64,000 nucleotides of DNA from Giardia intestinalis (GCA_000002435.2 CM018792.1), one strand, 5' to 3'. Positions 1,066-52,953 are shown, counted from the first letter of the stretch. Made by a program: numbers and translations. Notes: generated by a model not told the origin, from the letters alone.

Positions 1066-1099
1066 CGATCTGCAAGAGTAAATTCTATGTCTGTTGAGG

Positions 1100-14970: not shown

Positions 14971-15091
14971 CTTTTAAAAATAAAAATCTCTGCTCCTTTT
15001 CGAGTGGTGTTTTCCTACAGGAATGCCTCGAGGCCTCATGGCACAAAACAAATAGTTCAAAGGTTATATATAGAATTGTGCGGGGTTTGCG

Positions 15092-15163
15092 CCGGAATAG
15101 CTCAGCGGTAGAGCGCTGCACTTGTAATGCAGTGGTCGCGGGTTCAATTCCCGCTTTCGGCTT
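15092..15163 (+). tRNA. tRNA-Thr (anticodon UGU).
   Basis: Hand-folded cloverleaf. Acceptor stem GCCGGAA/TTTCGGC with one G-U pair. D arm GCTC-AGCGGTA-GAGC. Anticodon stem CTGCA/TGCAG with loop CTTGTAA, giving anticodon TGT. Variable loop TGGTC. T arm GCGGG-TTCAATT-CCCGC. Discriminator T. 72 nt, no intron. Confidence 0.8.
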
Positions 15164-15187
15164 TTCAGTGGGCCTTACAGGTTACAG

Positions 15188-15991: not shown

Positions 15992-16424
15992 ATGCATGAT
16001 GGTGCGTCTCACTAACGCTGGCCCGTTCTTTGGGTGTGCTGCAAGTCTGTCCTTCTTTTCCGGACGTGCATGCACTCCCACGAGGAACCTACAATTCTGG
16101 ATGCAGTGAAGGGGCCGATTACACGTCAGCCCTAGCAGCCCATGAGAGCCGCCTCCTGCAGACCTCTGGCCCAGGTTATACTGAGGACGCTATCGTAGAC
16201 ACAGATCTTTAGAAATCCTCATCCAACTTGAGTGCCTGAAGGAGTCTTAGTCTCGAGCATTATGCAATCTAACCACCATCGTTCTCGGCTCCAGCTGATC
16301 TTTCCCAATACAAGAGACATCGGGGACCCGTCGCCCAATTCGCACTCACAGTCGCTGTCTCCTGCCAATGGGCGCACCTACTCGAGCTTTCTCCACAATC
16401 GCCACCGCAGTAGATACATTTACA

Positions 16425-35331: not shown

Positions 35332-35699
35332 TATATTTATTTTAAGAAGAGATTTACTCCGTGTTAACAGACGAGCTTGCCACCCGCTGCCCGAGCAGGC
35401 CCGCTGGGGCCTCTCCCCCGCCCTGCGCGGTTGACCCCGAGAGCCTGGAGGCCGCCCGATTCTGGGGAGGGGAGGGGTGTCGCGCCTCCTCGCTCTGAGC
35501 GTCGTGACCTTGCTCTTGCGACACCGTCTGGGCTTCTCCTTTCTCTCACTCAGCCCCCTTGGGGCCAACTTCTGTATGGAGTGGAAAGCAGTGATCTTGG
35601 CCACGTAGCCTAGGGCCTTGGTACTCTATGACGAAGATTGCATACGCCATGAACCTCGGGATGGCCCGAAGCTCACCGGATACTTTCTTGTCATCTCGT

Positions 35700-37751
35700 G
35701 GAGCGGGTGTCCGTCCCACTATCAAGGGTGTGCTCCCCGTATGCCTCTATCTTGGAGTTAGAGTACGCACTCATGGATGCCGGCGGACAGCTCCCATGCG
35801 TTGGTGCCGAGGAAGAGGTCCAGCCCTGGTTTGCCTTCCCGCTCGACCCGTCCTTCTGCTCATGGACCACAGCGCGCCTCTTGTGCAGTGCTAGGAGACG
35901 CATACCGACAGACATTGCGCCTTGCCACGTCACTGGCCGGATCTTCCTGCTCGCGGTTGGCATGCGGCTCCTCGTCTGTCTGAACAAGGCAGTGGGGGTT
36001 GGAGTGGCAGAACTAGAGCGTGTTTGCCAGAGGCGCTAGTCTGCCGGCTAGAGGCGGAGTCGAGCGATGCCTGCCCAGAGATGCTCGCTCGGCTGCGAGG
36101 AGCACTGCAGGGGGTTCCACGAGCGCGGGAAGGCTCCCTCCCCTAGAAGCCCCGAGGGCCCTCGCGTCCCCGAGTTCAGTCTCCAGGGGCTTTGCGGGCA
36201 TATGCGACGATCTGGGCGCAAGAGCCCTGGGTGGTCTCGAACTCCGGACGCACGCTTTCACCAGGGTTTCGCACCCGAGCGTCCTCAGATACCACCGGGT
36301 AATCAGAACGAGCTGCTTTGTCTACACAACCATGGACCGCGGCCACAGAAGTCTAGGACAACTCCTCCTTGAGCACATGCAGGCCGACGAGCCGGTCGCT
36401 GAGGGCCTGGTGTTGTCCATCATGGAGCAGCTTTCTACCGGGCTTACCTACCTCCATGACGTCTGCTGGGAGGACGCCAGCGGAGCGCCCTGCCAGGGAA
36501 TCGTCCACTAGAGCCTCACGCCCGCCGACGCCCTCATTAGACAGGACGAACAGCGCGTCGTGCTCGCAGACTTCGCGTCCACAGAAACGCTCTGCACAGT
36601 GGCAGTGCGGAGGCAGAGGGCCCCGCGTACACGGATCCTGAAGCCCTCAGATGGCGCGGCCTCCGATCTCTGGGCCCTTGGTGCTATCGCATGCGAGCCT
36701 GCCACTTTGAAGGGGCCGAGCTTCCTGGACGGGTAAGACGCAAAGGCCCCTTTGTCGCCGGATGGAAGCCGAATCTGGGCCTTGTTGTGAAGGATCTCGT
36801 GTGGGATGTCCTCGGGAGGGTCTTTGCCTCAGACCCCGAGTGGTGACCAACAGCCACCAAGCTCGCCAGCCTGCTTCTGCGTGCGGGACGTCTGCTGTGG
36901 GCCCGGATCTCCAGGCCGGCGAGTTGGCAAGCACGGGCGAGTCTCTGCGGCCAGTGCCGAGTCTGTCCTTTCGAGGCAGGGCCCGAAGATGCCGCTCAGC
37001 ATATCAGAGGCATTGGCGCATCCATCGGGCCGTTCCACCAAAGGGCGGGAGCAGCACACTGCAGACGGGCACGGGGCTTCCATCGAATCGACCGACCAGG
37101 TTGCAGCGAGCGGCACGAGGTCCCTATCCTTCCGGGTCCCTGCGAAGGACTCCTCGTGGACCCGGCTGATGCGCGCTGCCGTTACTGGAGATCTCAAGAC
37201 GGCACAGAAGCACCTTGGTGAAAAGGACAAGAAGAACGAGGCGGCGACGCGGTGTACACTCCTGCCGTCAAGGCCGGACAGGGGCCGATGCTGGAGCTCC
37301 TTGACCTTACGGATAAGGCCGGGTCACGGCGCTCATGAGGGCTGCGGACAGAGGAGACGCAGAGGCAGTGAGGCTTCTGGTGAAGCACGAGGACGGCATG
37401 AGGGATGACGATGATTGACGGCGCTCATGATAGCAGCACGGTATCGCCATCCGGAATGCGTTAAGCTTGCTAGAGAGGGAAGCATGTATGACAGGCATAA
37501 GAGGCGCGACTGCTCTTGTGCATGCGGCGGCCAACGGCAGTGCCTTGTGCATACCCTTCCTCTTGGAGAAGGAGGCATGTGTGCAGGACGCCAGTGGCTG
37601 GTCTGCTCTCGCGTGGGCAACATATCTAGATAAGCCAGAGTGTGCGAAGCTTCTTATGGGGGAGGAGGACATAGAAATCACCCCCATAGCTGGAGGGTAT
37701 GCCGACGATGGCAACAATGGCAAGACCGGTGGCGACTATTGTCGACTATGA
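35700..37751 (+). pseudogene. NEK-type Ser/Thr kinase plus ankyrin-repeat pseudogene with a nonsense codon in the catalytic loop.
   Basis: Kinase subdomains IV-VIa in ORF 36020..36511 (HPSVLRYHRVIRTSCFVYTTMDRGHRSLGQLLLEHM...IMEQLSTGLTYLH). The frame then reads GIVH-TAG-SLTPADALIRQDEQRVVLADFA...ASDLWALGAI, that is HRDLKP, DFG and subdomain IX, with TAG (36496-36498) replacing the Arg of HRD and DFG changed to DFA. Ankyrin repeats are spread over three frames (WTRLMRAAVTGDLKTAQKHL; TALMIAARYRHPECVKLA; GATALVHAAANGSALCIPFLLEKEACVQDASGWSALAWATYLDKPECAKLL). Confidence 0.7.
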
Positions 37752-40301
37752 CGACTATGATTACTCGACTCCTATGACCACGATTATCATGCTCCTGACG
37801 ATCATGACGTTTACGATTGCTACGGTTACTAGTATTCTGATAACTATGATTTTCATAATCCTTTTGAATGCGATTCCTTATGTGGCGCCACAGCTCTTGA
37901 GCTAGAGGATGGATCATCGAGGGATAGTGGAGGTTCTTTCAACGCGACTGCAGGGTACTAACGGGCTTCTCTACAGGCACACCTTTATACAACTGCCAAT
38001 CTGTTTGCAGCAGTAAAGCTGCGTCACCGCAGTGGCCTAGGGGCTGCTCGATCTATAATTCCGCAAGGGGCAGGCTGATAAAGCAAAACTCTGCGGCCTA
38101 ATTTGTGCCCTGTACAGCCAGCAAGCAAATCCTCTGGACCGCCAGCAGAGCTGCTCGTTCAGCGGAGCGCCGTCTCGTAGGGAGAAGCGGGACGTCACTG
38201 TCAGGCCCAAGCGAGAGTGCCGGCGCCATGCGAACAGTCTCCGGTCCCTGGAGGCCGCCCCGGGTCACCGAAGGCAGGGTATCCTATTGCACAGTGCAGG
38301 CGCGTAGCAGCTAACAGAACCGGCGCAAGTGGCGGCCGAGCGGTGGCTTTTGCGCCTCTCCGAAGTGGGGAGACAGTGTCCAGAAGGCGCGAGGTTCCCG
38401 CGATTTGTCTGGAGCCAGCCGGGAGCGTCACAGAAAAAGCATCTTGAGGGCTCCCTAGGTGCAGTGGCAAAGGGACGTCCGCTGCTTCTTCGCCAGCGGC
38501 TTGCCCGGTGGACCACAGGGCCTCCTAGGCCGCCAAGCGCGAACACAGCTGCGATGAGTGGCTACTGTACGCCCTTGTGACACAGAGTGGACGTGCAGGA
38601 TGCCAGCGACGTGCTGAGGAAGGCTTTATTACCCTCCTGCTGTCTGTGCACCTGCTCCTGGTAAGGATGCTGAGCCCATGCTTACAAGCCACGGCCCCTT
38701 TGAGAGTGGCCAAAGCCGGTGCTCGAGCAGAGATAGATGGCTGCCTCGCAGATCTCGAATCGCTGCGCATGCCGGTCCAGAGAGACACCGATCAGCCCGT
38801 CACTAGGGATGAGGATCCAGGCATGAGAATCGCCAGCCTCCCGCGCCTCGGATGGACCCAGGCGATGGTGGTACGGGGCTAAGGGTCCTGCTACATCCGG
38901 GCAGACCAGGCATTGCCTCTGAACATGACATCAGGTCAGGGCCCTGTCGCGGACAGAGGGGCGAGGCTAGAAGCCAGCCGAGGCGGAGCAGCTGCATAGA
39001 CGGGAGCGCAGGTTATTATGGCAGCAGACTTCCACAGACGAGGGAGCCCGCGCTCTACTCCAGGATGAAACAGCGACGCCCCAGAGTGCGGCCCCGAACC
39101 ATGCTGCACCCCTCCTTTTGTGGCGCGGGAAGACTGCATGCACTTCAACCACGATGCATCCGGCCTTGAACACTGTGCGGAAAGACAGGCGGCCAGTGCG
39201 ATTCATGCGACGCAAGGAAGATGCCTCACCTTCTGATGCCCTACAATGCGGGGAACATAGCCCCCTGCGCACGGGCTGTCTGCTTAAGGACGGCAAGCAC
39301 ATGGAACCAGGCATGAACGGAACCGGGTCTTGATAGCGGCACGGCTGTCTTCAAGGGAAGGGTGATCTCTTGTCTCTTTAAGCAAGACGTGCTGGATCGC
39401 ACAAGCTTACGATTGGGTGAGGAAGGCTTCTGCATGCAACTCTCTGGCATGACCTAGCTGCAAACAGGCGGCAGCGAAGAGCGGACAGCGGGCTCCAGTC
39501 GTGCGGAAGGAGGATGCACCTGCCTGAGGCTACACGCAGTCATCAGGCGGGGCGTTCTCTGCAGAGGTTACGTGCTATGCAGGGTCGTGTCAAACCGAAG
39601 GACCACTCTTAGATGAGCCAGACCAAGGTGCCCCCATCCGCGCGAGACAGGCCTGTCAGATATATGGCATGCCTGCGAAAGTGAGCGCCGACAGGCAGGG
39701 GCCCGGGTAGACCTGGCGTCCTGGCCCAGAGAGTGAACGAGGACGGCCCGCGATACTTGTCCAGCCGAAGTATGAACGCTATGATGCCCCGGGTTGGACA
39801 AGCAACTCTTAGCGCCCCCCCTGAGAGGCTGCAGAGGACGGGCTTCTGGATGGAGGGACGACCCCAGCCAGGCAGACGTGATCACAGAAGAAGGGGCGCT
39901 GGAACCCGGAACAGTGGCTGACGACTGCGTGTCTGCGCGATGCAGTGCCCACTACTGTCAGTCGGCACACGGCGGTCGGCAGGACGCAGAGCTGCAGAGT
40001 GCTGGAGGCGCCGAGCGAGGCCAGTCTCGCTCATGGGACAGAGGCTGCCTGAGCCCCGCAGTCCTGCGAGCCTCTGGACGGTGGCAACAAGAGACCTTTC
40101 ATGGTACGCATCTGCCTGGATGGCGGCGTGATCCCAGAGCCGGCATCGTACCACTTCACGAGCATCACGATCGCTGTGTCCCCCACGATGGTCACTCGGG
40201 CAGTAGTCAGGTGCAGGGCATGGCGGCTCTTCCCTGTCCCCCAGCAGGACCTCGTAAGAGTAGAGTAGATTGTATAACGATGGACGCGTTTACTATCTAA
40301 G

Positions 40302-42524
40302 TCACGCCTTGCCCCTACATATGAACCACCAGCAGAGGAAGCCCACGAGGCCCCCAACGACGACGATGACTGCGACGGAGATGCCCGCGATGGCCCCCGT
40401 GGAGAGCCCGCTCTTATTCGTGCTTCCGCCAGTATTGTCGCCGGTATTATCATCCGTTTCGAAACATATGAACTTGCCGTTAACAGGTGTCGCGCACTGC
40501 CTGCATCCAGCCAGCCCCTCGGAGCACTTTCTGCACGGCCCATTACTACTACTCTCCTTGTAATATCCAGGAGTACATACCTTGCATGTAGTAGCATCGG
40601 CTTCGCAGGTGTAGCAACTTTCGTGGCATTTCGTGCAGGCACTGCCGACCTTCACATATCCGTCCATGCACCTAGAACAGTCCCTAGTGGTGGTGCACTC
40701 AGCGCACCCAGTGTAGCAAGCCACAAGGCTCTCGCCTGTCAGGCTAAATCCTTCTTCCGGAGTCTTGCAGGTTCCGCCTGTACTCTGCGCACTCAAGCAC
40801 ACTGTCGACCCCGGAAGCTGGCTGGTGGAGTAGCAGCCGCCGTTCATCTTGAAGAAGCCGTCTGCGCAGACATTGCACACGCCACCAGTAATGCTTCCAT
40901 CTTTGCACTTATCTGTGCGACTGGTTTTAACAGCACAGACGCCGTTCTGGGGATACTCGTTGTTTTGACTACAGACAGAGCAGTATTTTGTCCCCTCAAC
41001 AGTCAGACCGCACTCCCTGCACTTGCCTGTGCCTGTGCCCGCCGCGCACTCGGCCCCACATGTGCCAGTGTTTCCTGTGGATCCGTAGGTGAGCGCGCTT
41101 CCAGACTTACAGCTTGTGCAATCATTGGCAGTATTTCCGCTACATGTCTTACAGCTGGAATCGCAAGGGGAGCACGCTTCGCCGTAGAAGCCGTCCTTAC
41201 AGAGACCGCACCCGCCATTTTCACTGCACGCGAGACAGTTGGCGACCTCGCACTTCTTGCAGACCCTCTTGTTGCCCTCTGTGCTACTGTAGTAGCCTAG
41301 AATATATTCGCAGTGGTCTATGCACTGGTTTGTTGGCGTCAGATACTTGTTGGACAGACATTCGGTGCAGATCTCTTTGTTTGTTTGTGCACCACTGCAT
41401 GCCTTACAATCCTGAGTACTGCATGGATTTGAAGGGGAATCATTTGGCACGCATTGTGTTTCTTCTTCGTCAAGTTTAAATCCATCATTGCACGTGCAAG
41501 TATTCTCGGTCTTGGCTTCTGAGTTATCAGGGCAGCTACTAATGCACGACTTCTTTCCGAGTCCAAATACCATATTTTCCTTACACGCTGTGCAGGTAAC
41601 GGAGGTGTCACTTTTGGTGCATGTTTTGCAGTTCTCAAACGTTCCTGCCGTGCACGGCTTGCACGTCTTCGGCTCCTCATCGTCGGCGTAGTGGGTGTTT
41701 CCACTCGTGCACGCTTCCTCAGTCACGCACTCGCCTGCCTGATCCTGTGACTGCGCCTTCTTTAGGTACGGCTTGTCCTCATTGCAAGAGGTGCACTTCG
41801 TAGCCTCGGTCTCACAGGTCTTGCATGTCTCAGCGCACTTGGTGCATTTTTTACTGCCTGTTGCATCGACGAAGAAGCCTGCAGTACTCGTGCACTCATG
41901 TTCCGTCACACACGACGTCACGTCGCCGTCCGTCTTAACAATCCTCGCGGTTTGCTGCGCATCAGGGCCGCACGCAGTACACTTAGCAACTCCACTGGCC
42001 TCTACCGTTAATTGTAATCCGTCACAGGCAGTGCACCCATCCACGCCCGTGTACTTCTTATTGCCAGTAAGCGTCACGCCTATCGAATCTCCGCACGAAA
42101 CAACCGAGTCGTGCGCATTATCAGCGCCCGGCGGTAGAAAGTATCCTTCCGTAGCCTGTGTGCACTTACCACCAGCTGCTCCTCCACACATCACATTGCC
42201 AGGCTCAATAGCTTGTTCGTAACACCCGCCCTTGTACATAAAAGTCTGACCAGCGCACTTTGCACAGGTCTCATCAGATGCAGTATTTCCATCGGCAGCT
42301 GTACATTTATCTGTTACATCATCTTTGCCTACACATTTTCCATTGATAGGAACAAATCCTGTGTTACATTGAGAGCAATACAATTTACCACCGATCAGAA
42401 CGTTGCATGCGTTTGCTGCACAATTGGCGTTATTCGCGCAGTGAGCTTCCCGCGCACGTTCTGCTACTTTTTCTGCCCATGCAATCTGGATGGCTAGGCC
42501 CGCGAATATAAAACTGCCGAACAT
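40302..42524 (-). CDS. vsp: Variant-specific surface protein (VSP), 740 aa, copy 1 of an identical pair.
   Basis: Signal peptide MFGSFIFAGLAIQIAWA. About 12% Cys with many CXXC motifs. C-terminal TM plus the invariant Giardia VSP tail GGLVGFLCWWFICRGKA. AGTAAAC polyA signal 7 nt after the stop (40288..40294 on the minus strand). Confidence 0.93.
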   Translation of the reverse strand: MFGSFIFAGLAIQIAWAEKVAERAREAHCANNANCAANACNVLIGGKLYCSQCNTGFVPINGKCVGKDDVTDKCTAADGNTASDETCAKCAGQTFMYKGGCYEQAIEPGNVMCGGAAGGKCTQATEGYFLPPGADNAHDSVVSCGDSIGVTLTGNKKYTGVDGCTACDGLQLTVEASGVAKCTACGPDAQQTARIVKTDGDVTSCVTEHECTSTAGFFVDATGSKKCTKCAETCKTCETEATKCTSCNEDKPYLKKAQSQDQAGECVTEEACTSGNTHYADDEEPKTCKPCTAGTFENCKTCTKSDTSVTCTACKENMVFGLGKKSCISSCPDNSEAKTENTCTCNDGFKLDEEETQCVPNDSPSNPCSTQDCKACSGAQTNKEICTECLSNKYLTPTNQCIDHCEYILGYYSSTEGNKRVCKKCEVANCLACSENGGCGLCKDGFYGEACSPCDSSCKTCSGNTANDCTSCKSGSALTYGSTGNTGTCGAECAAGTGTGKCRECGLTVEGTKYCSVCSQNNEYPQNGVCAVKTSRTDKCKDGSITGGVCNVCADGFFKMNGGCYSTSQLPGSTVCLSAQSTGGTCKTPEEGFSLTGESLVACYTGCAECTTTRDCSRCMDGYVKVGSACTKCHESCYTCEADATTCKVCTPGYYKESSSNGPCRKCSEGLAGCRQCATPVNGKFICFETDDNTGDNTGGSTNKSGLSTGAIAGISVAVIVVVGGLVGFLCWWFICRGKA

Positions 42525-43439
42525 TAACCAATCTGGTAGATTGATAGGAACAGAATCGCGATATATTCAGCCAATCCGTGTGACTGACACATGATGATGA
42601 TGATGATTTACTCCACCCACCGGTTGCTTCCAGTGGTGTGCTGCTGGGGCCCTCGCCTGCAGGCGCTGTCCGCAAATCTCGCGAGTAAATTCCCGCTCAA
42701 TTTTTGGCGATGTCCGGAGATGAGGGTTGGTCACGGGCCGTAACGATAATCACAGCGGTTGTAAGGAGGAGCTATCTGCATTCCTCGGCTGTTCCGTGGG
42801 CATGCGCACACAACCGGACCTGAAACGAAGGAGAGCCCGCAAGGACCCGATCCACATCATGAACGCAAGATCGTACCTTCGGGCCCCCAGAGAGCAAGCC
42901 GTGAGTCTCTACTTGGGAGACCACTCCAAAGACGCTTGCCCTCTCGGCAGGACACACACGCTGGCTCTGTGGCCTACCGTGCAAGAGTGCCAACAATCAA
43001 CCGAGCACCTGAGAGAAGCAAATGATAACAGACACAGAGTACTAGGTGACGACAAACTGATCATTCCATCCCATATACCGAACCAGACAGCTGCCATGCT
43101 CATCCACCAGGGTGCAGCATGATCGCGAGCATCGAGCAGGCCGGGACTGGGGTAGCGCTCCCCGCTATCAGGGGCCTGAACGCCTTGGTAGGAAACTGCT
43201 AGAAGACTCAAGCAACACAGCAGAGCAGACCCAGAGCAAGGCGGACCCAGACCCCGAGAAGGCGAGACGCCGGATAGCAAACAGGGTGAACAACGCGCTG
43301 AGTTTCGGGGCAGTTGCCAAGGCCCTCCGCGCCCTTGATGACACGCCCACGATAGACAAGCCGGAGAAGGCCGACCGCCCTCAGCGCGCTACACCTGTGC
43401 GTCCCCCCGAAGGCTACGTTGGCCTTGACTACCCTCCAT

Positions 43440-45110
43440 CGATGAGCTCGACGGGCTGGAGTGGCAACCGAAGAAGAAATGAGGAAGGCTCTGTTTGAGA
43501 CTCTCAACAAGAAGGCCTCGGGCCGGTCCAGCTCAAGGCGATGAAGCAGAGCGACAGCTTCGTGAAGTACCTCACGCAGGCATACAACGAGCTGACCACC
43601 CACCCCGAGGCGATGCCAGAGGTGATGGCCATGCTCGAGTTCCGGGCGATCCTCATCCCGAAGGAGTCCGACGGATACCGCCCGATCGCGATAGGCGAGA
43701 CGGTGACAAACATCTTCCACCGCGTCCTGCTGAAGGGCTGATCAGGCATGCCAACTACCTCTTGTGCGAACAGATCGCCTTCATGCAGAACGCATACGCG
43801 GTAGGCGTGAGGAGGGCCCACGAGCTCATCAGCAGGACAGGAGCACGCCGTCTCCCTCGACACAAAGAACGCCCTCAACTCGCTCCCGAGGGCGGAGGTC
43901 GTCAGAGCCCTGAACGAGGCGGGCGTCCCGAAGGTCCTGGTCGACTACATCGGGGACTTCCTCGACCTGAGGCACAGCCGGGACGTGAAGTGCGAGGTCT
44001 GCGGCGTCCCCCAGGGCGACCCGCTCAGCATGCTCCTCTTCTGCATGGCCACCGAGCGCCTCCTGAGACGCCTCAGGGAGAGGGGCATCACCTTCCTTGC
44101 CTATGCGGACGACATCGTGGCGTTCCACGACGAGGCCTACCCAGCAGGCGTGATAACACAGCTGGCCATGGGCCTGACGATCAGGAGCGACAATGCAAGT
44201 CCACCATGGCGGGCGAGGAGGTGACCTTCCCCAACCACCCGGTGTCCCCCACTCCTGCCAGTCTCGCGCCGAAGGCCATCGCAGGTGCCGAGACTGCCCT
44301 GAGGAAGATTGAGAACGCCCCCATAACCACCCACCAGAAGCTCATCCTGATGTCACTCTGCGTGGTCCCGATGGTGAACTACGCCCCCCTGGTCGAGATA
44401 ACATCGGATAAGGCGGACTACAAGGAGCTGACAGATATCGCACAAGGCTTCAGCAAGCTAACCAGCAGAAGCTGCGATCGCCTGGTCGACTTCCTGGCGT
44501 ACCAAAGGAGAAGGGCGGCCCGGGCCTGCTCATGCCGGGGTTCTACCACGACGAGCTGCGGAGAGCATGGGCCTCCCTGGACGTCAACAAGGGGACCAGA
44601 GACCCGGTGGAGCTGCCGGTGGAAGGCCAGGCACTGCAAGGGAAGGGGACCTACTCCAACCGCCTCCTCACGCATACACCAGCTTCCGGACAGAGCGGCG
44701 GCGTGCTGACCGAGGAGGAAAGGGCCCTGAAGCAGAGAGATGGCTCGATCATGGGGCAGACAAGAGGCACCTGCCCGGGCTGCCACACGGCAAGGACCCT
44801 CGACCGCGACATGATCGTCACGTGCCTGTACCTCCGCGTCTCAGGGAAGTTCAACGCAGAGCTGGAGGTCAAGACCCACAGCCACCTCAGCGGCCAGAAC
44901 CAGAAGCCCGACATCTGGTTCGTCGACAAGTGCAAGGCGATAGATGTGGGTGTCATCCAGCCCCGCCAGATGGACGCCTACTACAACGAGAAGGTCAAGA
45001 AGTACAGGGACGGGACGCTCCCGATCATCTACGGGACAGACGGATCCCTCCACCCAAGTCCAAGGGGCACCTCGAGGAGCTCCACGTGGACCTCTGTCCG
45101 GGCTGCCTTC
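43440..45110 (+). mobile_element. Degenerate non-LTR retrotransposon (Giardia GilD/Genie-like: RT plus CCHC plus REL-endonuclease) with at least 3 frameshifts, filling the palindrome spacer.
   Basis: RT motif 0 (EEEMRKALFETLNKKASGP..QLKAMK, about 43470-43560, frameshifted). Motifs 1-2 (AILIPKESDGYRPIAIGETVTNIFHRVLLK, 43541..43741). Motif A (VSLDTKNALNSLPRAEVV), B (CGVPQGDPLSMLLF) and C (FLAYADDIVAF) in a second frame (about 43840..44222). Thumb in a third frame (ALRKIENAPITTHQKLILMSLCVVPMVNYAPLVE). Then CPGCH...C and a PD-(D/E)xK block (KPDIWFVDKCKAIDVGV) in ORF 44532..45359. No frame is intact across them. Confidence 0.8.
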
Positions 45111-45766
45111 GCCATCGCCCACATGGCTGCAAAGGCGAACGAGCACCCGACGAAGCTGATCAGACGGGCCGGGCCGAAAGCCTGGCCACCCAGAGCGACC
45201 GTCTCCTGTCATCCTACTTCTGACAACCGAATGAGTCCATCCCCGGGACCTGTCGACAACGACCGAGAAGGGGCGCAAGACTGGACACACAACCGAGTTG
45301 AATCCCAACCAGAAGAGAAAGCCCCGCTAGCTGCTGCTGATATACATGGACAGTATTGAGAATGACAACAAAGACCAGAGCTTCACTCACCGTGAAGGGA
45401 GAGCAAGGAGAGGCACCCTAGTAGACCAGCAAGCCTGCAGGACGGCTTGATCTCTGAAAGAACCGATGTGCACACCCAGTCTGAGCTCACGCCCACGGAA
45501 CAGCCGAGGAATGCAGATAGCTCCTCCCTTCCACTACTGTGGTCTTTGTATTGATACACGACCAACCCTCGTCTCCGGACTAGTCAGGGACTGAGCAAGA
45601 GCTTACCCGTGAGATCTCTGGACCATACCTGCAGGCGAGGGCCCCAGCAGCACACCACTGGAAGCAACCGGTGGGTGGAGTAAATCATCATCATCATCAT
45701 GTGTCAGTCACACGGATTGGCTGAATATATCGCGATTCTGTTCCTATCAATCTACCAGATTGGTTA

Positions 45767-47989
45767 ATGTTCGGCAGTTTTATATTCGCGGGCCTAGCCA
45801 TCCAGATTGCATGGGCAGAAAAAGTAGCAGAACGTGCGCGGGAAGCTCACTGCGCGAATAACGCCAATTGTGCAGCAAACGCATGCAACGTTCTGATCGG
45901 TGGTAAATTGTATTGCTCTCAATGTAACACAGGATTTGTTCCTATCAATGGAAAATGTGTAGGCAAAGATGATGTAACAGATAAATGTACAGCTGCCGAT
46001 GGAAATACTGCATCTGATGAGACCTGTGCAAAGTGCGCTGGTCAGACTTTTATGTACAAGGGCGGGTGTTACGAACAAGCTATTGAGCCTGGCAATGTGA
46101 TGTGTGGAGGAGCAGCTGGTGGTAAGTGCACACAGGCTACGGAAGGATACTTTCTACCGCCGGGCGCTGATAATGCGCACGACTCGGTTGTTTCGTGCGG
46201 AGATTCGATAGGCGTGACGCTTACTGGCAATAAGAAGTACACGGGCGTGGATGGGTGCACTGCCTGTGACGGATTACAATTAACGGTAGAGGCCAGTGGA
46301 GTTGCTAAGTGTACTGCGTGCGGCCCTGATGCGCAGCAAACCGCGAGGATTGTTAAGACGGACGGCGACGTGACGTCGTGTGTGACGGAACATGAGTGCA
46401 CGAGTACTGCAGGCTTCTTCGTCGATGCAACAGGCAGTAAAAAATGCACCAAGTGCGCTGAGACATGCAAGACCTGTGAGACCGAGGCTACGAAGTGCAC
46501 CTCTTGCAATGAGGACAAGCCGTACCTAAAGAAGGCGCAGTCACAGGATCAGGCAGGCGAGTGCGTGACTGAGGAAGCGTGCACGAGTGGAAACACCCAC
46601 TACGCCGACGATGAGGAGCCGAAGACGTGCAAGCCGTGCACGGCAGGAACGTTTGAGAACTGCAAAACATGCACCAAAAGTGACACCTCCGTTACCTGCA
46701 CAGCGTGTAAGGAAAATATGGTATTTGGACTCGGAAAGAAGTCGTGCATTAGTAGCTGCCCTGATAACTCAGAAGCCAAGACCGAGAATACTTGCACGTG
46801 CAATGATGGATTTAAACTTGACGAAGAAGAAACACAATGCGTGCCAAATGATTCCCCTTCAAATCCATGCAGTACTCAGGATTGTAAGGCATGCAGTGGT
46901 GCACAAACAAACAAAGAGATCTGCACCGAATGTCTGTCCAACAAGTATCTGACGCCAACAAACCAGTGCATAGACCACTGCGAATATATTCTAGGCTACT
47001 ACAGTAGCACAGAGGGCAACAAGAGGGTCTGCAAGAAGTGCGAGGTCGCCAACTGTCTCGCGTGCAGTGAAAATGGCGGGTGCGGTCTCTGTAAGGACGG
47101 CTTCTACGGCGAAGCGTGCTCCCCTTGCGATTCCAGCTGTAAGACATGTAGCGGAAATACTGCCAATGATTGCACAAGCTGTAAGTCTGGAAGCGCGCTC
47201 ACCTACGGATCCACAGGAAACACTGGCACATGTGGGGCCGAGTGCGCGGCGGGCACAGGCACAGGCAAGTGCAGGGAGTGCGGTCTGACTGTTGAGGGGA
47301 CAAAATACTGCTCTGTCTGTAGTCAAAACAACGAGTATCCCCAGAACGGCGTCTGTGCTGTTAAAACCAGTCGCACAGATAAGTGCAAAGATGGAAGCAT
47401 TACTGGTGGCGTGTGCAATGTCTGCGCAGACGGCTTCTTCAAGATGAACGGCGGCTGCTACTCCACCAGCCAGCTTCCGGGGTCGACAGTGTGCTTGAGT
47501 GCGCAGAGTACAGGCGGAACCTGCAAGACTCCGGAAGAAGGATTTAGCCTGACAGGCGAGAGCCTTGTGGCTTGCTACACTGGGTGCGCTGAGTGCACCA
47601 CCACTAGGGACTGTTCTAGGTGCATGGACGGATATGTGAAGGTCGGCAGTGCCTGCACGAAATGCCACGAAAGTTGCTACACCTGCGAAGCCGATGCTAC
47701 TACATGCAAGGTATGTACTCCTGGATATTACAAGGAGAGTAGTAGTAATGGGCCGTGCAGAAAGTGCTCCGAGGGGCTGGCTGGATGCAGGCAGTGCGCG
47801 ACACCTGTTAACGGCAAGTTCATATGTTTCGAAACGGATGATAATACCGGCGACAATACTGGCGGAAGCACGAATAAGAGCGGGCTCTCCACGGGGGCCA
47901 TCGCGGGCATCTCCGTCGCAGTCATCGTCGTCGTTGGGGGCCTCGTGGGCTTCCTCTGCTGGTGGTTCATATGTAGGGGCAAGGCGTGA
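45767..47989 (+). CDS. vsp: Variant-specific surface protein (VSP), 740 aa, copy 2. Identical to 40302..42524 and head-to-head with it.
   Basis: Identical 740-aa translation ending ...FLCWWFICRGKA. AGTAAAC polyA signal at 47997..48003. Confidence 0.93.
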   Translation: MFGSFIFAGLAIQIAWAEKVAERAREAHCANNANCAANACNVLIGGKLYCSQCNTGFVPINGKCVGKDDVTDKCTAADGNTASDETCAKCAGQTFMYKGGCYEQAIEPGNVMCGGAAGGKCTQATEGYFLPPGADNAHDSVVSCGDSIGVTLTGNKKYTGVDGCTACDGLQLTVEASGVAKCTACGPDAQQTARIVKTDGDVTSCVTEHECTSTAGFFVDATGSKKCTKCAETCKTCETEATKCTSCNEDKPYLKKAQSQDQAGECVTEEACTSGNTHYADDEEPKTCKPCTAGTFENCKTCTKSDTSVTCTACKENMVFGLGKKSCISSCPDNSEAKTENTCTCNDGFKLDEEETQCVPNDSPSNPCSTQDCKACSGAQTNKEICTECLSNKYLTPTNQCIDHCEYILGYYSSTEGNKRVCKKCEVANCLACSENGGCGLCKDGFYGEACSPCDSSCKTCSGNTANDCTSCKSGSALTYGSTGNTGTCGAECAAGTGTGKCRECGLTVEGTKYCSVCSQNNEYPQNGVCAVKTSRTDKCKDGSITGGVCNVCADGFFKMNGGCYSTSQLPGSTVCLSAQSTGGTCKTPEEGFSLTGESLVACYTGCAECTTTRDCSRCMDGYVKVGSACTKCHESCYTCEADATTCKVCTPGYYKESSSNGPCRKCSEGLAGCRQCATPVNGKFICFETDDNTGDNTGGSTNKSGLSTGAIAGISVAVIVVVGGLVGFLCWWFICRGKA

Positions 47990-47996
47990 CTTAGAT

Positions 47997-48003
47997 AGTA
48001 AAC
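47997..48003 (+). terminator. Giardia polyadenylation signal AGTAAAC (AGTRAAY) 7 nt after the VSP stop. Its mirror is at 40288..40294 on the minus strand.
   Basis: Exact match to the AGTRAAY consensus, which normally lies within about 10-30 nt downstream of the stop codon in Giardia mRNAs. Confidence 0.7.
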
Positions 48004-50539
48004 GCGTCCATCGTTATACAATCTACTCTACTCTTACGAGGTCCTGCTGGGGGACAGGGAAGAGCCGCCATGCCCTGCACCTGACTACTGCCCGAGTGAC
48101 CATCGTGGGGGACACAGCGATCGTGATGCTCGTGAAGTGGTACGATGCCGGCTCTGGGATCACGCCGCCATCCAGGCAGATGCGTACCATGAAAGGTCTC
48201 TTGTTGCCACCGTCCAGAGGCTCGCAGGACTGCGGGGCTCAGGCAGCCTCTGTCCCATGAGCGAGACTGGCCTCGCTCGGCGCCTCCAGCACTCTGCAGC
48301 TCTGCGTCCTGCCGACCGCCGTGTGCCGACTGACAGTAGTGGGCACTGCATCGCGCAGACACGCAGTCGTCAGCCACTGTTCCGGGTTCCAGCGCCCCTT
48401 CTTCTGTGATCACGTCTGCCTGGCTGGGGTCGTCCCTCCATCCAGAAGCCCGTCCTCTGCAGCCTCTCAGGGGGGGCGCTAAGAGTTGCTTGTCCAACCC
48501 GGGGCATCATAGCGTTCATACTTCGGCTGGACAAGTATCGCGGGCCGTCCTCGTTCACTCTCTGGGCCAGGACGCCAGGTCTACCCGGGCCCCTGCCTGT
48601 CGGCGCTCACTTTCGCAGGCATGCCATATATCTGACAGGCCTGTCTCGCGCGGATGGGGGCACCTTGGTCTGGCTCATCTAAGAGTGGTCCTTCGGTTTG
48701 ACACGACCCTGCATAGCACGTAACCTCTGCAGAGAACGCCCCGCCTGATGACTGCGTGTAGCCTCAGGCAGGTGCATCCTCCTTCCGCACGACTGGAGCC
48801 CGCTGTCCGCTCTTCGCTGCCGCCTGTTTGCAGCTAGGTCATGCCAGAGAGTTGCATGCAGAAGCCTTCCTCACCCAATCGTAAGCTTGTGCGATCCAGC
48901 ACGTCTTGCTTAAAGAGACAAGAGATCACCCTTCCCTTGAAGACAGCCGTGCCGCTATCAAGACCCGGTTCCGTTCATGCCTGGTTCCATGTGCTTGCCG
49001 TCCTTAAGCAGACAGCCCGTGCGCAGGGGGCTATGTTCCCCGCATTGTAGGGCATCAGAAGGTGAGGCATCTTCCTTGCGTCGCATGAATCGCACTGGCC
49101 GCCTGTCTTTCCGCACAGTGTTCAAGGCCGGATGCATCGTGGTTGAAGTGCATGCAGTCTTCCCGCGCCACAAAAGGAGGGGTGCAGCATGGTTCGGGGC
49201 CGCACTCTGGGGCGTCGCTGTTTCATCCTGGAGTAGAGCGCGGGCTCCCTCGTCTGTGGAAGTCTGCTGCCATAATAACCTGCGCTCCCGTCTATGCAGC
49301 TGCTCCGCCTCGGCTGGCTTCTAGCCTCGCCCCTCTGTCCGCGACAGGGCCCTGACCTGATGTCATGTTCAGAGGCAATGCCTGGTCTGCCCGGATGTAG
49401 CAGGACCCTTAGCCCCGTACCACCATCGCCTGGGTCCATCCGAGGCGCGGGAGGCTGGCGATTCTCATGCCTGGATCCTCATCCCTAGTGACGGGCTGAT
49501 CGGTGTCTCTCTGGACCGGCATGCGCAGCGATTCGAGATCTGCGAGGCAGCCATCTATCTCTGCTCGAGCACCGGCTTTGGCCACTCTCAAAGGGGCCGT
49601 GGCTTGTAAGCATGGGCTCAGCATCCTTACCAGGAGCAGGTGCACAGACAGCAGGAGGGTAATAAAGCCTTCCTCAGCACGTCGCTGGCATCCTGCACGT
49701 CCACTCTGTGTCACAAGGGCGTACAGTAGCCACTCATCGCAGCTGTGTTCGCGCTTGGCGGCCTAGGAGGCCCTGTGGTCCACCGGGCAAGCCGCTGGCG
49801 AAGAAGCAGCGGACGTCCCTTTGCCACTGCACCTAGGGAGCCCTCAAGATGCTTTTTCTGTGACGCTCCCGGCTGGCTCCAGACAAATCGCGGGAACCTC
49901 GCGCCTTCTGGACACTGTCTCCCCACTTCGGAGAGGCGCAAAAGCCACCGCTCGGCCGCCACTTGCGCCGGTTCTGTTAGCTGCTACGCGCCTGCACTGT
50001 GCAATAGGATACCCTGCCTTCGGTGACCCGGGGCGGCCTCCAGGGACCGGAGACTGTTCGCATGGCGCCGGCACTCTCGCTTGGGCCTGACAGTGACGTC
50101 CCGCTTCTCCCTACGAGACGGCGCTCCGCTGAACGAGCAGCTCTGCTGGCGGTCCAGAGGATTTGCTTGCTGGCTGTACAGGGCACAAATTAGGCCGCAG
50201 AGTTTTGCTTTATCAGCCTGCCCCTTGCGGAATTATAGATCGAGCAGCCCCTAGGCCACTGCGGTGACGCAGCTTTACTGCTGCAAACAGATTGGCAGTT
50301 GTATAAAGGTGTGCCTGTAGAGAAGCCCGTTAGTACCCTGCAGTCGCGTTGAAAGAACCTCCACTATCCCTCGATGATCCATCCTCTAGCTCAAGAGCTG
50401 TGGCGCCACATAAGGAATCGCATTCAAAAGGATTATGAAAATCATAGTTATCAGAATACTAGTAACCGTAGCAATCGTAAACGTCATGATCGTCAGGAGC
50501 ATGATAATCGTGGTCATAGGAGTCGAGTAATCATAGTCG

Positions 50540-52591
50540 TCATAGTCGACAATAGTCGCCACCGGTCTTGCCATTGTTGCCATCGTCGGCATACCCTCCA
50601 GCTATGGGGGTGATTTCTATGTCCTCCTCCCCCATAAGAAGCTTCGCACACTCTGGCTTATCTAGATATGTTGCCCACGCGAGAGCAGACCAGCCACTGG
50701 CGTCCTGCACACATGCCTCCTTCTCCAAGAGGAAGGGTATGCACAAGGCACTGCCGTTGGCCGCCGCATGCACAAGAGCAGTCGCGCCTCTTATGCCTGT
50801 CATACATGCTTCCCTCTCTAGCAAGCTTAACGCATTCCGGATGGCGATACCGTGCTGCTATCATGAGCGCCGTCAATCATCGTCATCCCTCATGCCGTCC
50901 TCGTGCTTCACCAGAAGCCTCACTGCCTCTGCGTCTCCTCTGTCCGCAGCCCTCATGAGCGCCGTGACCCGGCCTTATCCGTAAGGTCAAGGAGCTCCAG
51001 CATCGGCCCCTGTCCGGCCTTGACGGCAGGAGTGTACACCGCGTCGCCGCCTCGTTCTTCTTGTCCTTTTCACCAAGGTGCTTCTGTGCCGTCTTGAGAT
51101 CTCCAGTAACGGCAGCGCGCATCAGCCGGGTCCACGAGGAGTCCTTCGCAGGGACCCGGAAGGATAGGGACCTCGTGCCGCTCGCTGCAACCTGGTCGGT
51201 CGATTCGATGGAAGCCCCGTGCCCGTCTGCAGTGTGCTGCTCCCGCCCTTTGGTGGAACGGCCCGATGGATGCGCCAATGCCTCTGATATGCTGAGCGGC
51301 ATCTTCGGGCCCTGCCTCGAAAGGACAGACTCGGCACTGGCCGCAGAGACTCGCCCGTGCTTGCCAACTCGCCGGCCTGGAGATCCGGGCCCACAGCAGA
51401 CGTCCCGCACGCAGAAGCAGGCTGGCGAGCTTGGTGGCTGTTGGTCACCACTCGGGGTCTGAGGCAAAGACCCTCCCGAGGACATCCCACACGAGATCCT
51501 TCACAACAAGGCCCAGATTCGGCTTCCATCCGGCGACAAAGGGGCCTTTGCGTCTTACCCGTCCAGGAAGCTCGGCCCCTTCAAAGTGGCAGGCTCGCAT
51601 GCGATAGCACCAAGGGCCCAGAGATCGGAGGCCGCGCCATCTGAGGGCTTCAGGATCCGTGTACGCGGGGCCCTCTGCCTCCGCACTGCCACTGTGCAGA
51701 GCGTTTCTGTGGACGCGAAGTCTGCGAGCACGACGCGCTGTTCGTCCTGTCTAATGAGGGCGTCGGCGGGCGTGAGGCTCTAGTGGACGATTCCCTGGCA
51801 GGGCGCTCCGCTGGCGTCCTCCCAGCAGACGTCATGGAGGTAGGTAAGCCCGGTAGAAAGCTGCTCCATGATGGACAACACCAGGCCCTCAGCGACCGGC
51901 TCGTCGGCCTGCATGTGCTCAAGGAGGAGTTGTCCTAGACTTCTGTGGCCGCGGTCCATGGTTGTGTAGACAAAGCAGCTCGTTCTGATTACCCGGTGGT
52001 ATCTGAGGACGCTCGGGTGCGAAACCCTGGTGAAAGCGTGCGTCCGGAGTTCGAGACCACCCAGGGCTCTTGCGCCCAGATCGTCGCATATGCCCGCAAA
52101 GCCCCTGGAGACTGAACTCGGGGACGCGAGGGCCCTCGGGGCTTCTAGGGGAGGGAGCCTTCCCGCGCTCGTGGAACCCCCTGCAGTGCTCCTCGCAGCC
52201 GAGCGAGCATCTCTGGGCAGGCATCGCTCGACTCCGCCTCTAGCCGGCAGACTAGCGCCTCTGGCAAACACGCTCTAGTTCTGCCACTCCAACCCCCACT
52301 GCCTTGTTCAGACAGACGAGGAGCCGCATGCCAACCGCGAGCAGGAAGATCCGGCCAGTGACGTGGCAAGGCGCAATGTCTGTCGGTATGCGTCTCCTAG
52401 CACTGCACAAGAGGCGCGCTGTGGTCCATGAGCAGAAGGACGGGTCGAGCGGGAAGGCAAACCAGGGCTGGACCTCTTCCTCGGCACCAACGCATGGGAG
52501 CTGTCCGCCGGCATCCATGAGTGCGTACTCTAACTCCAAGATAGAGGCATACGGGGAGCACACCCTTGATAGTGGGACGGACACCCGCTCC
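50540..52591 (-). pseudogene. Second copy, identical and mirrored, of the NEK kinase plus ankyrin pseudogene.
   Basis: Mirror of 35700..37751. The same TAG sits in the HRD position (ORF 51780..52271(-) ends GIVH-stop). Confidence 0.7.
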
Positions 52592-52953
52592 ACGAGATGA
52601 CAAGAAAGTATCCGGTGAGCTTCGGGCCATCCCGAGGTTCATGGCGTATGCAATCTTCGTCATAGAGTACCAAGGCCCTAGGCTACGTGGCCAAGATCAC
52701 TGCTTTCCACTCCATACAGAAGTTGGCCCCAAGGGGGCTGAGTGAGAGAAAGGAGAAGCCCAGACGGTGTCGCAAGAGCAAGGTCACGACGCTCAGAGCG
52801 AGGAGGCGCGACACCCCTCCCCTCCCCAGAATCGGGCGGCCTCCAGGCTCTCGGGGTCAACCGCGCAGGGCGGGGGAGAGGCCCCAGCGGGCCTGCTCGG
52901 GCAGCGGGTGGCAAGCAAATTCTACAAAGATTTACTTCTAAGAACGTAAAGGA

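What the first reader, a model, noticed from the sequence alone, without database searches (positions are those of the whole stretch)
40302..47989. Identical VSP gene pair in head-to-head (divergent) orientation, start codons 3.24 kb apart
Both 740-aa ORFs carry the Giardia VSP hallmarks (signal peptide, CXXC-rich ectodomain, TM, invariant CRGKA tail, AGTAAAC polyA signal). VSPs are normally expressed one at a time, and silencing has been linked to antisense or dsRNA made from vsp transcripts. A perfectly duplicated, inverted vsp pair is an obvious intramolecular source of sense plus antisense VSP RNA. Any read-through from one arm is antisense to the other arm only beyond the spacer. Snap-back hairpin RNA is possible if transcription crosses the axis. 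The pair is also a template for gene conversion between VSP copies.
Basis: partly seen in the sequence, partly recalled or inferred. Interest (0 to 1): 0.7.

Follow-up and report, generated by a model that had tools for sequence, protein, structure and literature searches.

The report
Known duplicated Giardia VSP gene pair
The two identical surface-antigen (VSP) genes are real, but they are a pair already catalogued in the Giardia WB reference genome, and they form part of a 17.5 kb mirror-image duplication built around a dead retrotransposon, so the finding is ordinary.

Summary
Two identical 740-aa VSP ORFs (40302-42524 on the minus strand, 45767-47989 on the plus strand) lie head to head, 3,242 bp apart. 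The object is published: Xu et al. 2020 (PMC7000408, Table 2) lists chr 4, GL50803_0050229/d50229, '<- ->', 740 aa, 3242 bp, psiRT between. Adam et al. 2010 and Rodriguez-Walker et al. 2022 describe the class (14-20 identical inverted VSP pairs).

- The repeat is 7,289 bp per arm with zero mismatches (35375-42663 / 45628-52916). Each arm also carries a decayed NEK-kinase pseudogene.
- The 'spacer' is a discrete 3.08 kb dead non-LTR retrotransposon (42607-45684) with its own ~200 bp terminal inverted repeats. Perfect arm identity ends 57 bp inside those repeats.
- The whole 17.5 kb module is inserted between a peptidase gene and Nop14, which are adjacent in G. muris.

Independent short-read assemblies break exactly at the arm edge, which argues against an assembly artefact. 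The dsRNA/hairpin idea is untested and gets no specific support: antisense RNA is general to VSPs, and another inverted pair (VSP1267) can be the expressed antigen. Most likely this is an inverted segmental duplication seeded at the retroelement's inverted repeats and kept identical by arm-to-arm gene conversion. Novelty: already known. Interest: low.

The parts
35375..42663 (.). Left arm of the perfect inverted repeat (7,289 bp, GC 0.58)
   Evidence: Base-by-base reverse-complement comparison gives zero mismatches over 7,289 bp. The repeat was first detected.
45628..52916 (.). Right arm of the perfect inverted repeat (7,289 bp)
   Evidence: Short-read contigs from at least 20 runs end 30 nt inside its outer edge, and L006 reads 3,092 bp into it at 100% identity.
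40302..42524 (-). VSP gene copy 1 (740 aa; one of GL50803_0050229/d50229; KAE8304422.1 and KAE8304423.1 are the two copies, which is which was not determined)
   Evidence: ORF. 100% identical to P0001, a Giardia WB VSP. Matches the Xu 2020 Table 2 entry.
45767..47989 (+). VSP gene copy 2 (740 aa, identical to copy 1)
   Evidence: Pfam PF03302, E=1e-136.
47997..48003 (+). AGTAAAC polyadenylation signal of copy 2 (the mirror for copy 1 is at 40288-40294 on the minus strand)
42607..45684 (+). Dead non-LTR retrotransposon (the psiRT of Xu 2020; GilD-like), a discrete 3,078 bp element
   Evidence: blastn shows 86-88% identity over the full length to three separate loci in isolate DH (L004, L003, L001). 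The stitched ORF hits RVT_1 at E=7e-19. There are at least 5 frame changes between conserved blocks. Homologues are found only in Giardia.
42607..42810 (.). Left terminal inverted repeat of the retroelement. The outer 57 bp (42607-42663) lie inside the perfect arm.
45476..45684 (.). Right terminal inverted repeat of the retroelement. The outer 57 bp (45628-45684) lie inside the perfect arm. The inner part is a divergent variant, ~70-80% identical to the left TIR with indels.
43649..44125 (+). Reverse-transcriptase core motifs, spread over three reading frames: ILIPKESDGYRPIAIGE, HAVSLDTKNALNS, GVPQGDPLS, FLAYADDIVAF
44772..45056 (+). C-terminal CCHC knuckle (CPGCHTARTLDRDMIVTC) and a PD...D..K-like block. 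This is read as a restriction-enzyme-like endonuclease domain.
   Evidence: Sequence. The domain assignment is my inference from knowledge of R2/NeSL-type elements, not a tool hit.
36257..37680 (+). Decayed NEK-type pseudogene in the left arm: protein-kinase fragment 36257-36712 and ankyrin repeats 37317-37680, in different frames. The mirror copy is at 50611-52034 on the minus strand.
   Evidence: Pfam Pkinase E=4e-6 and Ank_2 E=1.5e-13 on X-masked frame translations.
32794..35331 (-). Left flanking gene, Nop14-like. Its probable ATG at 35331 is 43 bp outside the arm.
   Evidence: Pfam Nop14, E=4e-19. Start position.
52954..56355 (-). Right flanking gene, an M16C/PreP-type metalloprotease. 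Its stop is 37 bp outside the arm.
   Evidence: Pfam. The G. muris orthologue lies directly next to Nop14.

Best explanation
This is the published duplicated VSP pair GL50803_0050229/GL50803_00d50229 on chromosome 4 of Giardia intestinalis WB.

Shown:
- The pair is the coding part of a 17,542 bp palindromic module (35375-52916).
- The module has two 7,289 bp arms with no differences. Each arm carries one VSP gene plus 4.9 kb of GC-rich, gene-poor DNA with a NEK-kinase pseudogene.
- The arms flank a 3.08 kb dead non-LTR retrotransposon that has its own ~200 bp terminal inverted repeats.
- Perfect identity stops 57 bp inside those repeats.
- The module is an insertion between two housekeeping genes that are adjacent in G. 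muris.

Inferred origin (about 50% confidence): a VSP-bearing segment next to the retroelement was copied in inverted orientation. The element's own inverted repeats supplied the homology, either by fold-back priming after a break or by a replication template switch. This would explain why the junction lies inside the TIR, and why the same element family sits at the centre of other inverted VSP pairs.

Inferred maintenance: the arms stay identical through arm-to-arm gene conversion, whose inner limit is where TIR homology decays (about 55%). The alternative is that the duplication is simply very recent (about 40%).

Functional consequence: two identical copies of one antigen gene, each with the same 139 bp of upstream sequence. 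There is no evidence for a dedicated RNA-silencing role.
For: Identity of the object:
- 100% protein match to WB VSP KAE8304422.1/KAE8304423.1 on a 2,761,001 bp contig.
- Xu 2020 Table 2 row 'chr 4, 50229/d50229, <- ->, 740 aa, 3242 bp, psiRT' matches my measurements.

Class:
- 14 identical inverted pairs in Adam 2010; 20 pairs in the 2022 preprint, with retrotransposon remnants between head-to-head pairs.
- GilD elements lie next to VSPs (PMC2861651).

Anatomy:
- Arms. NEK pseudogene. RT.
- The element is discrete, has TIRs, and is present in DH both solitary (L003) and inside another inverted VSP duplication (L004).
- The identity boundary lies inside the TIR.

Insertion: peptidase and Nop14 are 95 bp apart in G. 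muris. The outer junctions are abrupt and retain 37 + 43 bp of intergenic DNA.

Real duplication: contigs from at least 20 independent runs end k-1 = 30 nt inside the arm edge, and L006 crosses it.

For gene conversion:
- In WB every identical VSP duplicate is an inverted pair, and no identical genes occur in any other arrangement (Adam 2010).
- Identity here covers pseudogene and non-coding DNA.
Against: - The seeding role of the TIRs and the gene-conversion step are inferences from structure. No intermediate or orthologous locus was examined.
- The outer 57 bp of the left and right TIRs are also nearly identical in the DH copies. The boundary position therefore does not by itself prove overwriting.
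- The arm ends coincide exactly with the edges of the inserted DNA. This fits insertion of a preformed palindrome at least as well as in-situ duplication.
- The DH L004 arms are only 95.5% identical, so homogenisation is not universal. Alternatively, that short-read contig may be imperfect.
- The name GilD/Genie 2 and its reported flanking inverted repeats rest on my memory of Arkhipova & Morrison 2001 and Burke et al. 2002, which could not be read.
Confidence: 0.85

Rival explanations
1. One reading: the inverted pair is a functional hairpin/dsRNA locus. A transcript crossing the axis folds back, is diced, and feeds RNAi-type silencing of this or related VSPs.
For: - The geometry allows it: 2.2 kb of perfectly complementary VSP sequence, and 7.3 kb in all.
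- There is no AGTRAAY poly(A) motif on the minus strand across the retroelement. A minus-strand read-through from antisense-right-VSP into sense-left-VSP is therefore not obviously terminated.
- VSP antisense RNA is abundant in Giardia.
- RNAi components have been implicated in VSP control (Prucca et al. 2008, from memory).
Against: - Antisense excess is seen for ~80-88% of VSPs whether or not they are paired.
- The inverted pair VSP1267 is the highly expressed VSP in a clone, so pairing does not impose silencing.
- Both promoters fire outward.
- On the plus strand an AGTAAAT sits at 42684, just past the left VSP.
- The arms are mostly pseudogene or non-coding DNA, as expected for a segmental duplication rather than a designed hairpin.
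- No RNA data exist for this locus.
Confidence: 0.08
2. Assembly artefact or collapsed alleles: a single-copy VSP was wrongly duplicated in inverted orientation by the long-read assembler.
For: - Perfect palindromes can arise from SMRTbell or chimeric reads.
- This gene ID (50229) is new to the 2020 assembly, and the protein has no accession from the 2007 annotation.
- Early duplicated pairs were once questioned as artefacts.
Against: - The centre is a complete, independently defined element with its own asymmetric TIRs. It is not a zero-spacer fold-back.
- The two arm ends abut two different unique genes.
- Unitigs from at least 20 independent Illumina runs branch exactly at the arm edge, and one contig crosses it.
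- The class is supported by Sanger assembly and earlier mapping of vsp1267 and by optical maps.
Confidence: 0.03
3. One-off, very recent inverted duplication with no ongoing homogenisation. The arms are identical only because too little time has passed.
For: - There are zero differences in 7,289 bp.
- WB heterozygosity is very low, ~0.01%, so young duplicates would look perfect.
- The DH L004 arms at 95.5% suggest arms can drift.
- Adam 2010 favoured recent duplication and transposition.
Against: - Fourteen to twenty WB pairs are all exactly identical, with very few intermediates.
- Identical duplicates occur only in inverted orientation. This is the pattern expected from stable arm-to-arm conversion rather than from a steady birth-and-decay process.
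- The same VSP-retroelement-VSP architecture recurs with diverged paralogues (vsp162 is 56% identical).
Confidence: 0.35

Closest known systems
GL50803_0050229 / GL50803_00d50229 duplicated VSP pair (Xu et al. 2020, Sci Data, PMC7000408, Table 2)
   Same: Chromosome 4, divergent orientation, 740 aa, 3,242 bp between genes, reverse-transcriptase remnant in between. The protein is 100% identical. It is the same object.
   Different: Nothing differs. The paper does not report the arm length (7,289 bp), the NEK pseudogene in the arms, the TIRs of the RT element, or the insertion site.
Identical inverted vsp pairs of isolate WB (Adam et al. 2010, PMC2996952), e.g. vsp162 (GL50803_111933/111936) and vsp1267
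   Same: - Identical ORFs in inverted orientation.
- 2.2-3.8 kb between ORFs.
- Flanks identical up to an abrupt divergence 139-729 bp from the ORF; here it is 139 bp on the 5' side.
- vsp162 is also on chr 4, head to head, with a psiRT and a TAATGTT initiator.
   Different: - This pair is not one of the four head-to-head pairs listed in 2010. vsp162 equals P0003 and is only 56% identical.
- Here the identity continues 4.9 kb beyond the 3' end, against 141-203 nt reported for the two head-to-head pairs that could be measured.
GilD / Genie 2 dead non-LTR retrotransposon family of Giardia (Arkhipova & Morrison 2001; Burke et al. 2002)
   Same: - RT followed by a C-terminal endonuclease-like region.
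- Riddled with frameshifts.
- Located in gene-poor DNA next to VSP genes (PMC2861651).
- About 3 kb long.
- From memory, Genie 2 was reported to be flanked by inverted repeats.
   Different: No reference GilD sequence was available, so the family name is an assignment by description and not by alignment.
Large palindromes formed from short inverted repeats and kept identical by arm-to-arm gene conversion (yeast and mammalian fold-back palindromes; human Y-chromosome ampliconic palindromes)
   Same: - Long near-perfect arms around a unique spacer.
- Identity extends over non-coding DNA.
- A short pre-existing inverted repeat sits exactly at the arm/spacer junction.
   Different: - The module is interstitial, only 17.5 kb, and embedded between single-copy genes.
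- Neither the formation mechanism nor conversion has been demonstrated in Giardia.
Hairpin-RNA (inverted-repeat) endo-siRNA loci of animals, plants and fungi
   Same: An inverted duplication of a gene that could in principle give a long hairpin transcript.
   Different: - The genes fire outward from the axis.
- The loop would be a 3 kb retroelement.
- No transcript or small RNAs are known from this locus.
- Another Giardia inverted VSP pair is highly expressed.

Membership tests
Giardia variant-specific surface protein (VSP, PF03302) | Match to the family profile above the curated threshold | tested here: met
   E=1.1e-136, 456 bits against a 31.4-bit cut-off.
Giardia variant-specific surface protein (VSP, PF03302) | N-terminal signal peptide, ~12% Cys mostly as CXXC, GGCY motifs, a single C-terminal TM segment, and an invariant CRGKA tail | tested here: met
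   88 Cys (11.9%), 28 CXXC, YKGGCY and MNGGCY, and a ...GFLCWWFICRGKA* tail. The signal peptide and TM segment were judged by eye from hydrophobic stretches, not by a predictor.
Giardia variant-specific surface protein (VSP, PF03302) | Initiator element [T/C]AATGTT at the start codon and an AGTRAAY poly(A) signal just after the stop | tested here: met
   TTAATGTTCGG at the ATG; AGTAAAC 8 nt after the stop.
Identical inverted VSP pairs of WB (Adam 2010 / Xu 2020) | Two identical ORFs in inverted orientation, 2-4 kb apart, with flanks identical up to an abrupt break | tested here: met
   Identical ORFs 3,242 bp apart, with an abrupt break 139 bp upstream of each ATG. This is an exact match to a Table 2 row.
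Identical inverted VSP pairs of WB (Adam 2010 / Xu 2020) | Both copies physically present in the genome (not an assembly duplicate) | tested here: inconclusive
   Indirect support comes from short-read unitigs of at least 20 runs branching at the arm edge and from L006 crossing it. Spanning long reads could not be examined.
GilD / Genie 2 dead non-LTR retrotransposon | Reverse-transcriptase domain of non-LTR type, with a C-terminal endonuclease region | tested here: met
   RVT_1, E=6.8e-19, on the stitched ORF. The CCHC and PD..D..K-like motifs were read from sequence; the endonuclease assignment is inference.
GilD / Genie 2 dead non-LTR retrotransposon | All copies inactivated (frameshifts/stops), and located beside VSP genes in gene-poor DNA | tested here: met
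   At least 5 frame changes plus stops. VSP genes lie 82 bp from each end. The location property is stated in PMC2861651.
GilD / Genie 2 dead non-LTR retrotransposon | Sequence identity to the reference GilD consensus | not testable with these tools
   The defining papers and sequences are not held. Only unnamed DH/P15/GS relatives were found.
Hairpin-RNA / endo-siRNA-producing inverted repeat | A single transcript spanning both arms | not testable with these tools
   No RNA data are available. Only poly(A)-motif positions could be listed.
Hairpin-RNA / endo-siRNA-producing inverted repeat | Dicer-sized (25-27 nt) small RNAs of both polarities enriched over the arms | not testable with these tools
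   No small-RNA data are available. Published strand-specific RNA-seq shows antisense is general to VSPs.
Palindrome maintained by arm-to-arm gene conversion | Arms identical within a lineage but diverged between lineages (concerted evolution) | not tested
   The WB chromosomes and the orthologous loci of other assemblage A isolates were not retrievable.

The most novel reading that the evidence does not exclude
The retroelement-centred palindrome is more than a passive duplication. A transcript reading through the dead retrotransposon on the minus strand, where no AGTRAAY signal is present, would join antisense and sense copies of the VSP into a long hairpin. This would make head-to-head VSP pairs dedicated producers of VSP-directed small RNAs, and the retroelement's inverted repeats would be the engine that creates such loci.
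Probability: 0.07. Interest if true: 0.7.

Novelty: already known. Interest (0 to 1): 0.15.

Why it matters
As a discovery it does not matter much. The pair, its orientation, its spacing and the RT remnant between the genes are in a published table of the reference genome, and the class has been described since 2010.

The modest added value is anatomical:
- The repeat is 7.3 kb per arm rather than gene-sized.
- The 'spacer' is a discrete element with its own terminal inverted repeats, and the perfect identity ends inside them.
- The whole module is an insertion between two conserved neighbours.

If the TIR-seeded origin and arm-to-arm conversion were confirmed across all WB pairs, that would give a concrete mechanism for what Adam et al. 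called an 'interesting, but cryptic' feature of VSP family expansion. It would also bear on how read-mapping studies of VSP expression should treat these loci.

Tried and rejected
1. Matching the pair to Adam 2010's head-to-head pair vsp162 (same chromosome, same Cys and CXXC counts). Rejected: vsp162 equals P0003 (741 aa, 75.4 kDa) and is only 56% identical.
2. Fetching WB DNA for the VSP itself, vsp162 and the chr-3 relative P0002, to compare paralogous palindromes. These products are not on record in the contig index.
3. Fetching the Nop14-side junction from independent assemblies. Not on record.
4. Reading the degenerate 145 bp inner repeat as an eroded palindrome margin. Rejected: the same TIRs occur on solitary copies of the element in DH.
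5. Using left/right TIR differences in DH to tell which arm was the donor. Uninformative, because the outer 57 bp are the same on both sides there.
6. Reading Arkhipova & Morrison 2001 (not held), and searching for a description of Genie 2 inverted repeats. Nothing usable.
7. Pfam on the VSP-sense frames of the distal arm. No domains.
8. Rfam and tRNA scans. Nothing in the module.
9. The sigma-70 promoter/terminator scan was not used, because it is irrelevant to Giardia.

Full report
**Observation.** The protein is an unambiguous Giardia VSP:
- Pfam PF03302, E=1e-136.
- 88 Cys, 28 CXXC, GGCY motifs, a hydrophobic N-terminus, and a TM segment followed by CRGKA.
- A TAATGTT initiator at the ATG and AGTAAAC 8 nt after the stop.

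The ORFs are 3,242 bp apart. The finding understates the repeat. Base-by-base comparison shows two arms of 7,289 bp (35375-42663 and 45628-52916) that are perfect reverse complements with no mismatch. The arms and centre have GC ~0.58-0.60, against ~0.445 in the flanks.

**Identity of the locus.** The protein is 100% identical to a VSP of Giardia intestinalis WB C6. It carries two consecutive accessions (KAE8304422.1 and KAE8304423.1) and lies on a 2,761,001 bp contig. The next closest VSP is 74% identical. Xu et al. 2020 (PMC7000408), Table 2, lists 'chr 4, 50229, d50229, <- ->, 740 aa, 3242 bp, psiRT', which matches in every field. The class was described earlier:
- Adam et al. 2010 (PMC2996952) reported 14 identical inverted pairs (10 tail to tail, 4 head to head). 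They lie 2,190-3,847 bp apart, with flanks identical up to an abrupt break 139-729 bp from the ORF.
- They found no identical genes outside such pairs, and called the pairs 'interesting, but cryptic'.
- This pair is not among their four head-to-head pairs. vsp162 has the same chromosome and Cys counts but equals P0003, which is only 56% identical.
- Rodriguez-Walker et al. 2022 (bioRxiv 10.1101/2022.03.07.483299) count 20 pairs and note retrotransposon remnants between head-to-head pairs.

**Anatomy of the arms.** Beyond the VSP, each arm carries 4.9 kb without long ORFs. X-masked frame translations give a protein-kinase fragment (left arm ~36257-36712) and ankyrin repeats (~37317-37680) in different frames. 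This is a decayed NEK-type pseudogene convergent with the VSP. The VSP-sense frames hit nothing. No RNA genes lie in the module.

**Anatomy of the centre.** The sequence between the genes contains a reverse transcriptase broken over at least three frames.
- The stitched product hits RVT_1 at E=7e-19 and ends in a CCHC knuckle and a PD..D..K-like block.
- Its only relatives are Giardia proteins from isolates DH, P15 and GS.
- blastn against the DH loci shows that window 42607-45684 (3,078 bp) is a discrete element, 86-88% identical over its full length to three separate DH loci. Each copy has its own ~190-210 bp terminal inverted repeats starting at TTTACTCCACCC.
- One DH copy (L003) is solitary between unrelated genes. 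Another (L004) is itself embedded in a larger inverted repeat carrying tail-to-tail VSP 3' ends, with 909 bp arms at 95.5% identity.
- In P15 a VSP lies head to head with an RT ORF and there is no second VSP.

By description this is the 'dead' GilD family. Gladyshev & Arkhipova (PMC2861651) say GilD lies in gene-poor regions next to VSPs. The family name, and my recollection that 'Genie 2' was reported with flanking inverted repeats, could not be checked.

**The junctions.** Each VSP ATG lies 82 bp from an element terminus. The perfect arms run 57 bp into the element's TIRs and stop where the right TIR switches to a divergent variant, ~70-80% identical to the left TIR with indels. The unique core spans ~42811-45475. 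The outer junctions are abrupt switches from AT-rich intergenic DNA to GC-rich arm sequence, with no clear target-site duplication.
- The left arm ends 43 bp upstream of the probable Nop14 start.
- The right arm ends 37 bp after the stop of an M16C/PreP-type peptidase gene, just beyond that gene's AGTAAAT signal.
- In G. muris the peptidase and Nop14 genes are adjacent with a 95 bp gap. The 17.5 kb module is therefore an insertion into a conserved intergenic site.
- In assemblage B (GS) the peptidase is followed by 856 bp of unrelated sequence and then a contig end.

**Is it an artefact?** Independent short-read (Logan) assemblies carry the peptidase gene at 100% identity. Contigs from 20 or more runs stop at 52887, exactly 30 nt (k-1) inside the arm edge at 52916, as expected when a de Bruijn graph branches at a repeat boundary. 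One contig (L006) continues 3,092 bp into the arm at 100% identity. The centre is a complete, asymmetric element and the two arm ends abut different unique genes. Together these make an assembly duplicate unlikely (about 3%). Spanning long reads were not available to me.

**How it most likely arose and persists.**
- Shown: the structure above.
- Inferred origin: a VSP-bearing segment beside the retroelement was copied in inverted orientation using the element's TIRs as homology, by fold-back priming after a break or by a replication template switch. This would place the junction inside the TIR and would explain why the same element sits at the centre of several head-to-head pairs (4 of 7 in Xu's table) and of the DH L004 pair.
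- Complication: the arm ends coincide exactly with the edges of the inserted DNA, which fits insertion of a preformed palindrome at least as well as in-situ growth.
- Why the arms are identical: I favour arm-to-arm gene conversion (about 55%) over mere recency (about 40%). In WB all identical VSP duplicates are inverted pairs, there are few intermediates, and identity covers pseudogene and non-coding DNA. This needs the cross-isolate test described under next steps.
- Recombination among VSPs is independently visible. Residues 1-240 are 73% identical to vsp162 but 32% to P0002, while residues 286-740 are 96.5% identical to P0002 but 51% to vsp162.

**The dsRNA interpretation.** It cannot be tested with these tools, and the published data give it no specific support.
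- Antisense exceeds sense for roughly 80-88% of all VSPs regardless of pairing.
- The inverted pair VSP1267 is the dominant transcript in a clone expressing it.
- Both genes fire away from the axis, so a hairpin requires a transcript of at least 7.7 kb through the retroelement.
- Motif positions are mildly asymmetric: there is an AGTAAAT on the plus strand at 42684, and no AGTRAAY on the minus strand across the element. A minus-strand read-through is therefore not excluded.

I put a functional hairpin role at about 7-8%.

**Verdict.** The only additions are structural details and a testable origin model.

Noticed in passing
window 160-1065 (+): Another cysteine-rich membrane-protein ORF. It hits Pfam VSP at E=1.6e-8 and has a TM segment, but its tail is ...FRRKQ instead of CRGKA. 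AGTAAAT lies 14 nt after the stop. It is probably a CRMP/HCMP-type gene, sits in a GC-rich island (1-3000), and may run off the window start.
   Followed up: partly
window 2666-2897 versus arms 35601-35827 (mirror ~52464-52690): A stretch of ~230 bp is 72% similar (79-nt core at 82%), in inverted orientation, between the GC-rich island at the window start and the outer end of the arms. This suggests a shared repeat family in VSP/CRMP-associated islands.
   Followed up: partly
window 15091-15162 (+) and 15188-15991 (+): A tRNA-Thr(TGT) sits in a third GC-rich island (15000-16500). The adjacent 267-aa ORF gives only a marginal START-domain hit (E=1e-4).
   Followed up: no
VSP ORFs 40302-42524 / 45767-47989: The VSP is a mosaic with a sharp breakpoint near residue 285. 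Residues 1-240 are 73% identical to vsp162 (P0003). Residues 286-740 are 96.5% identical to a VSP on a 1.97 Mb contig, probably chr 3 (P0002). This is evidence of inter-locus recombination.
   Followed up: partly
window 35349-35359 and 52928-52938: Both unique flanks carry AGATTTACT[C/T]C 11-14 nt outside the arm ends. Its reverse complement is G[G/A]AGTAAATCT, which is poly(A)-signal-like. The retroelement TIR terminus also starts TTTACTCC. This could be a remnant target duplication or just recurrent poly(A) motifs; it is unexplained.
   Followed up: no
window 42591-42606 and mirror 45685-45700: An (ATG)5 microsatellite directly abuts both termini of the retroelement. It is part of the arms and is absent from the flanks of the DH copies.
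   Followed up: no
L004 (G. duodenalis DH, AHGT01000170.1) 163-1069 / 3869-4773: A copy of the same retroelement is flanked by tail-to-tail VSP 3' ends in inverted arms of 909 bp at 95.5% identity. Retroelement-centred inverted VSP duplications therefore also occur in the opposite gene orientation and with diverged arms.
   Followed up: partly
L002 (G. lamblia P15, ACVC01000769.1) 3197-7008: In assemblage E a VSP (minus strand) lies head to head with a 475-aa RT ORF of the same family. No second VSP lies beyond it. This is a possible unduplicated counterpart of the architecture.
   Followed up: no
L013 (GS, ACGJ01002498.1) 11171-12026: In assemblage B the peptidase gene is followed by 856 bp unrelated to the WB arm, to Nop14 or to VSP, and then the contig ends. 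The same intergenic site may be a synteny break there too.
   Followed up: partly
window 42684 (+): An AGTAAAT poly(A)-like motif is present in the left TIR only. It lies just inside the non-identical part and is lost in the divergent right TIR. No AGTRAAY occurs on the minus strand across the whole retroelement. Read-through potential is therefore asymmetric between the two strands.
   Followed up: no
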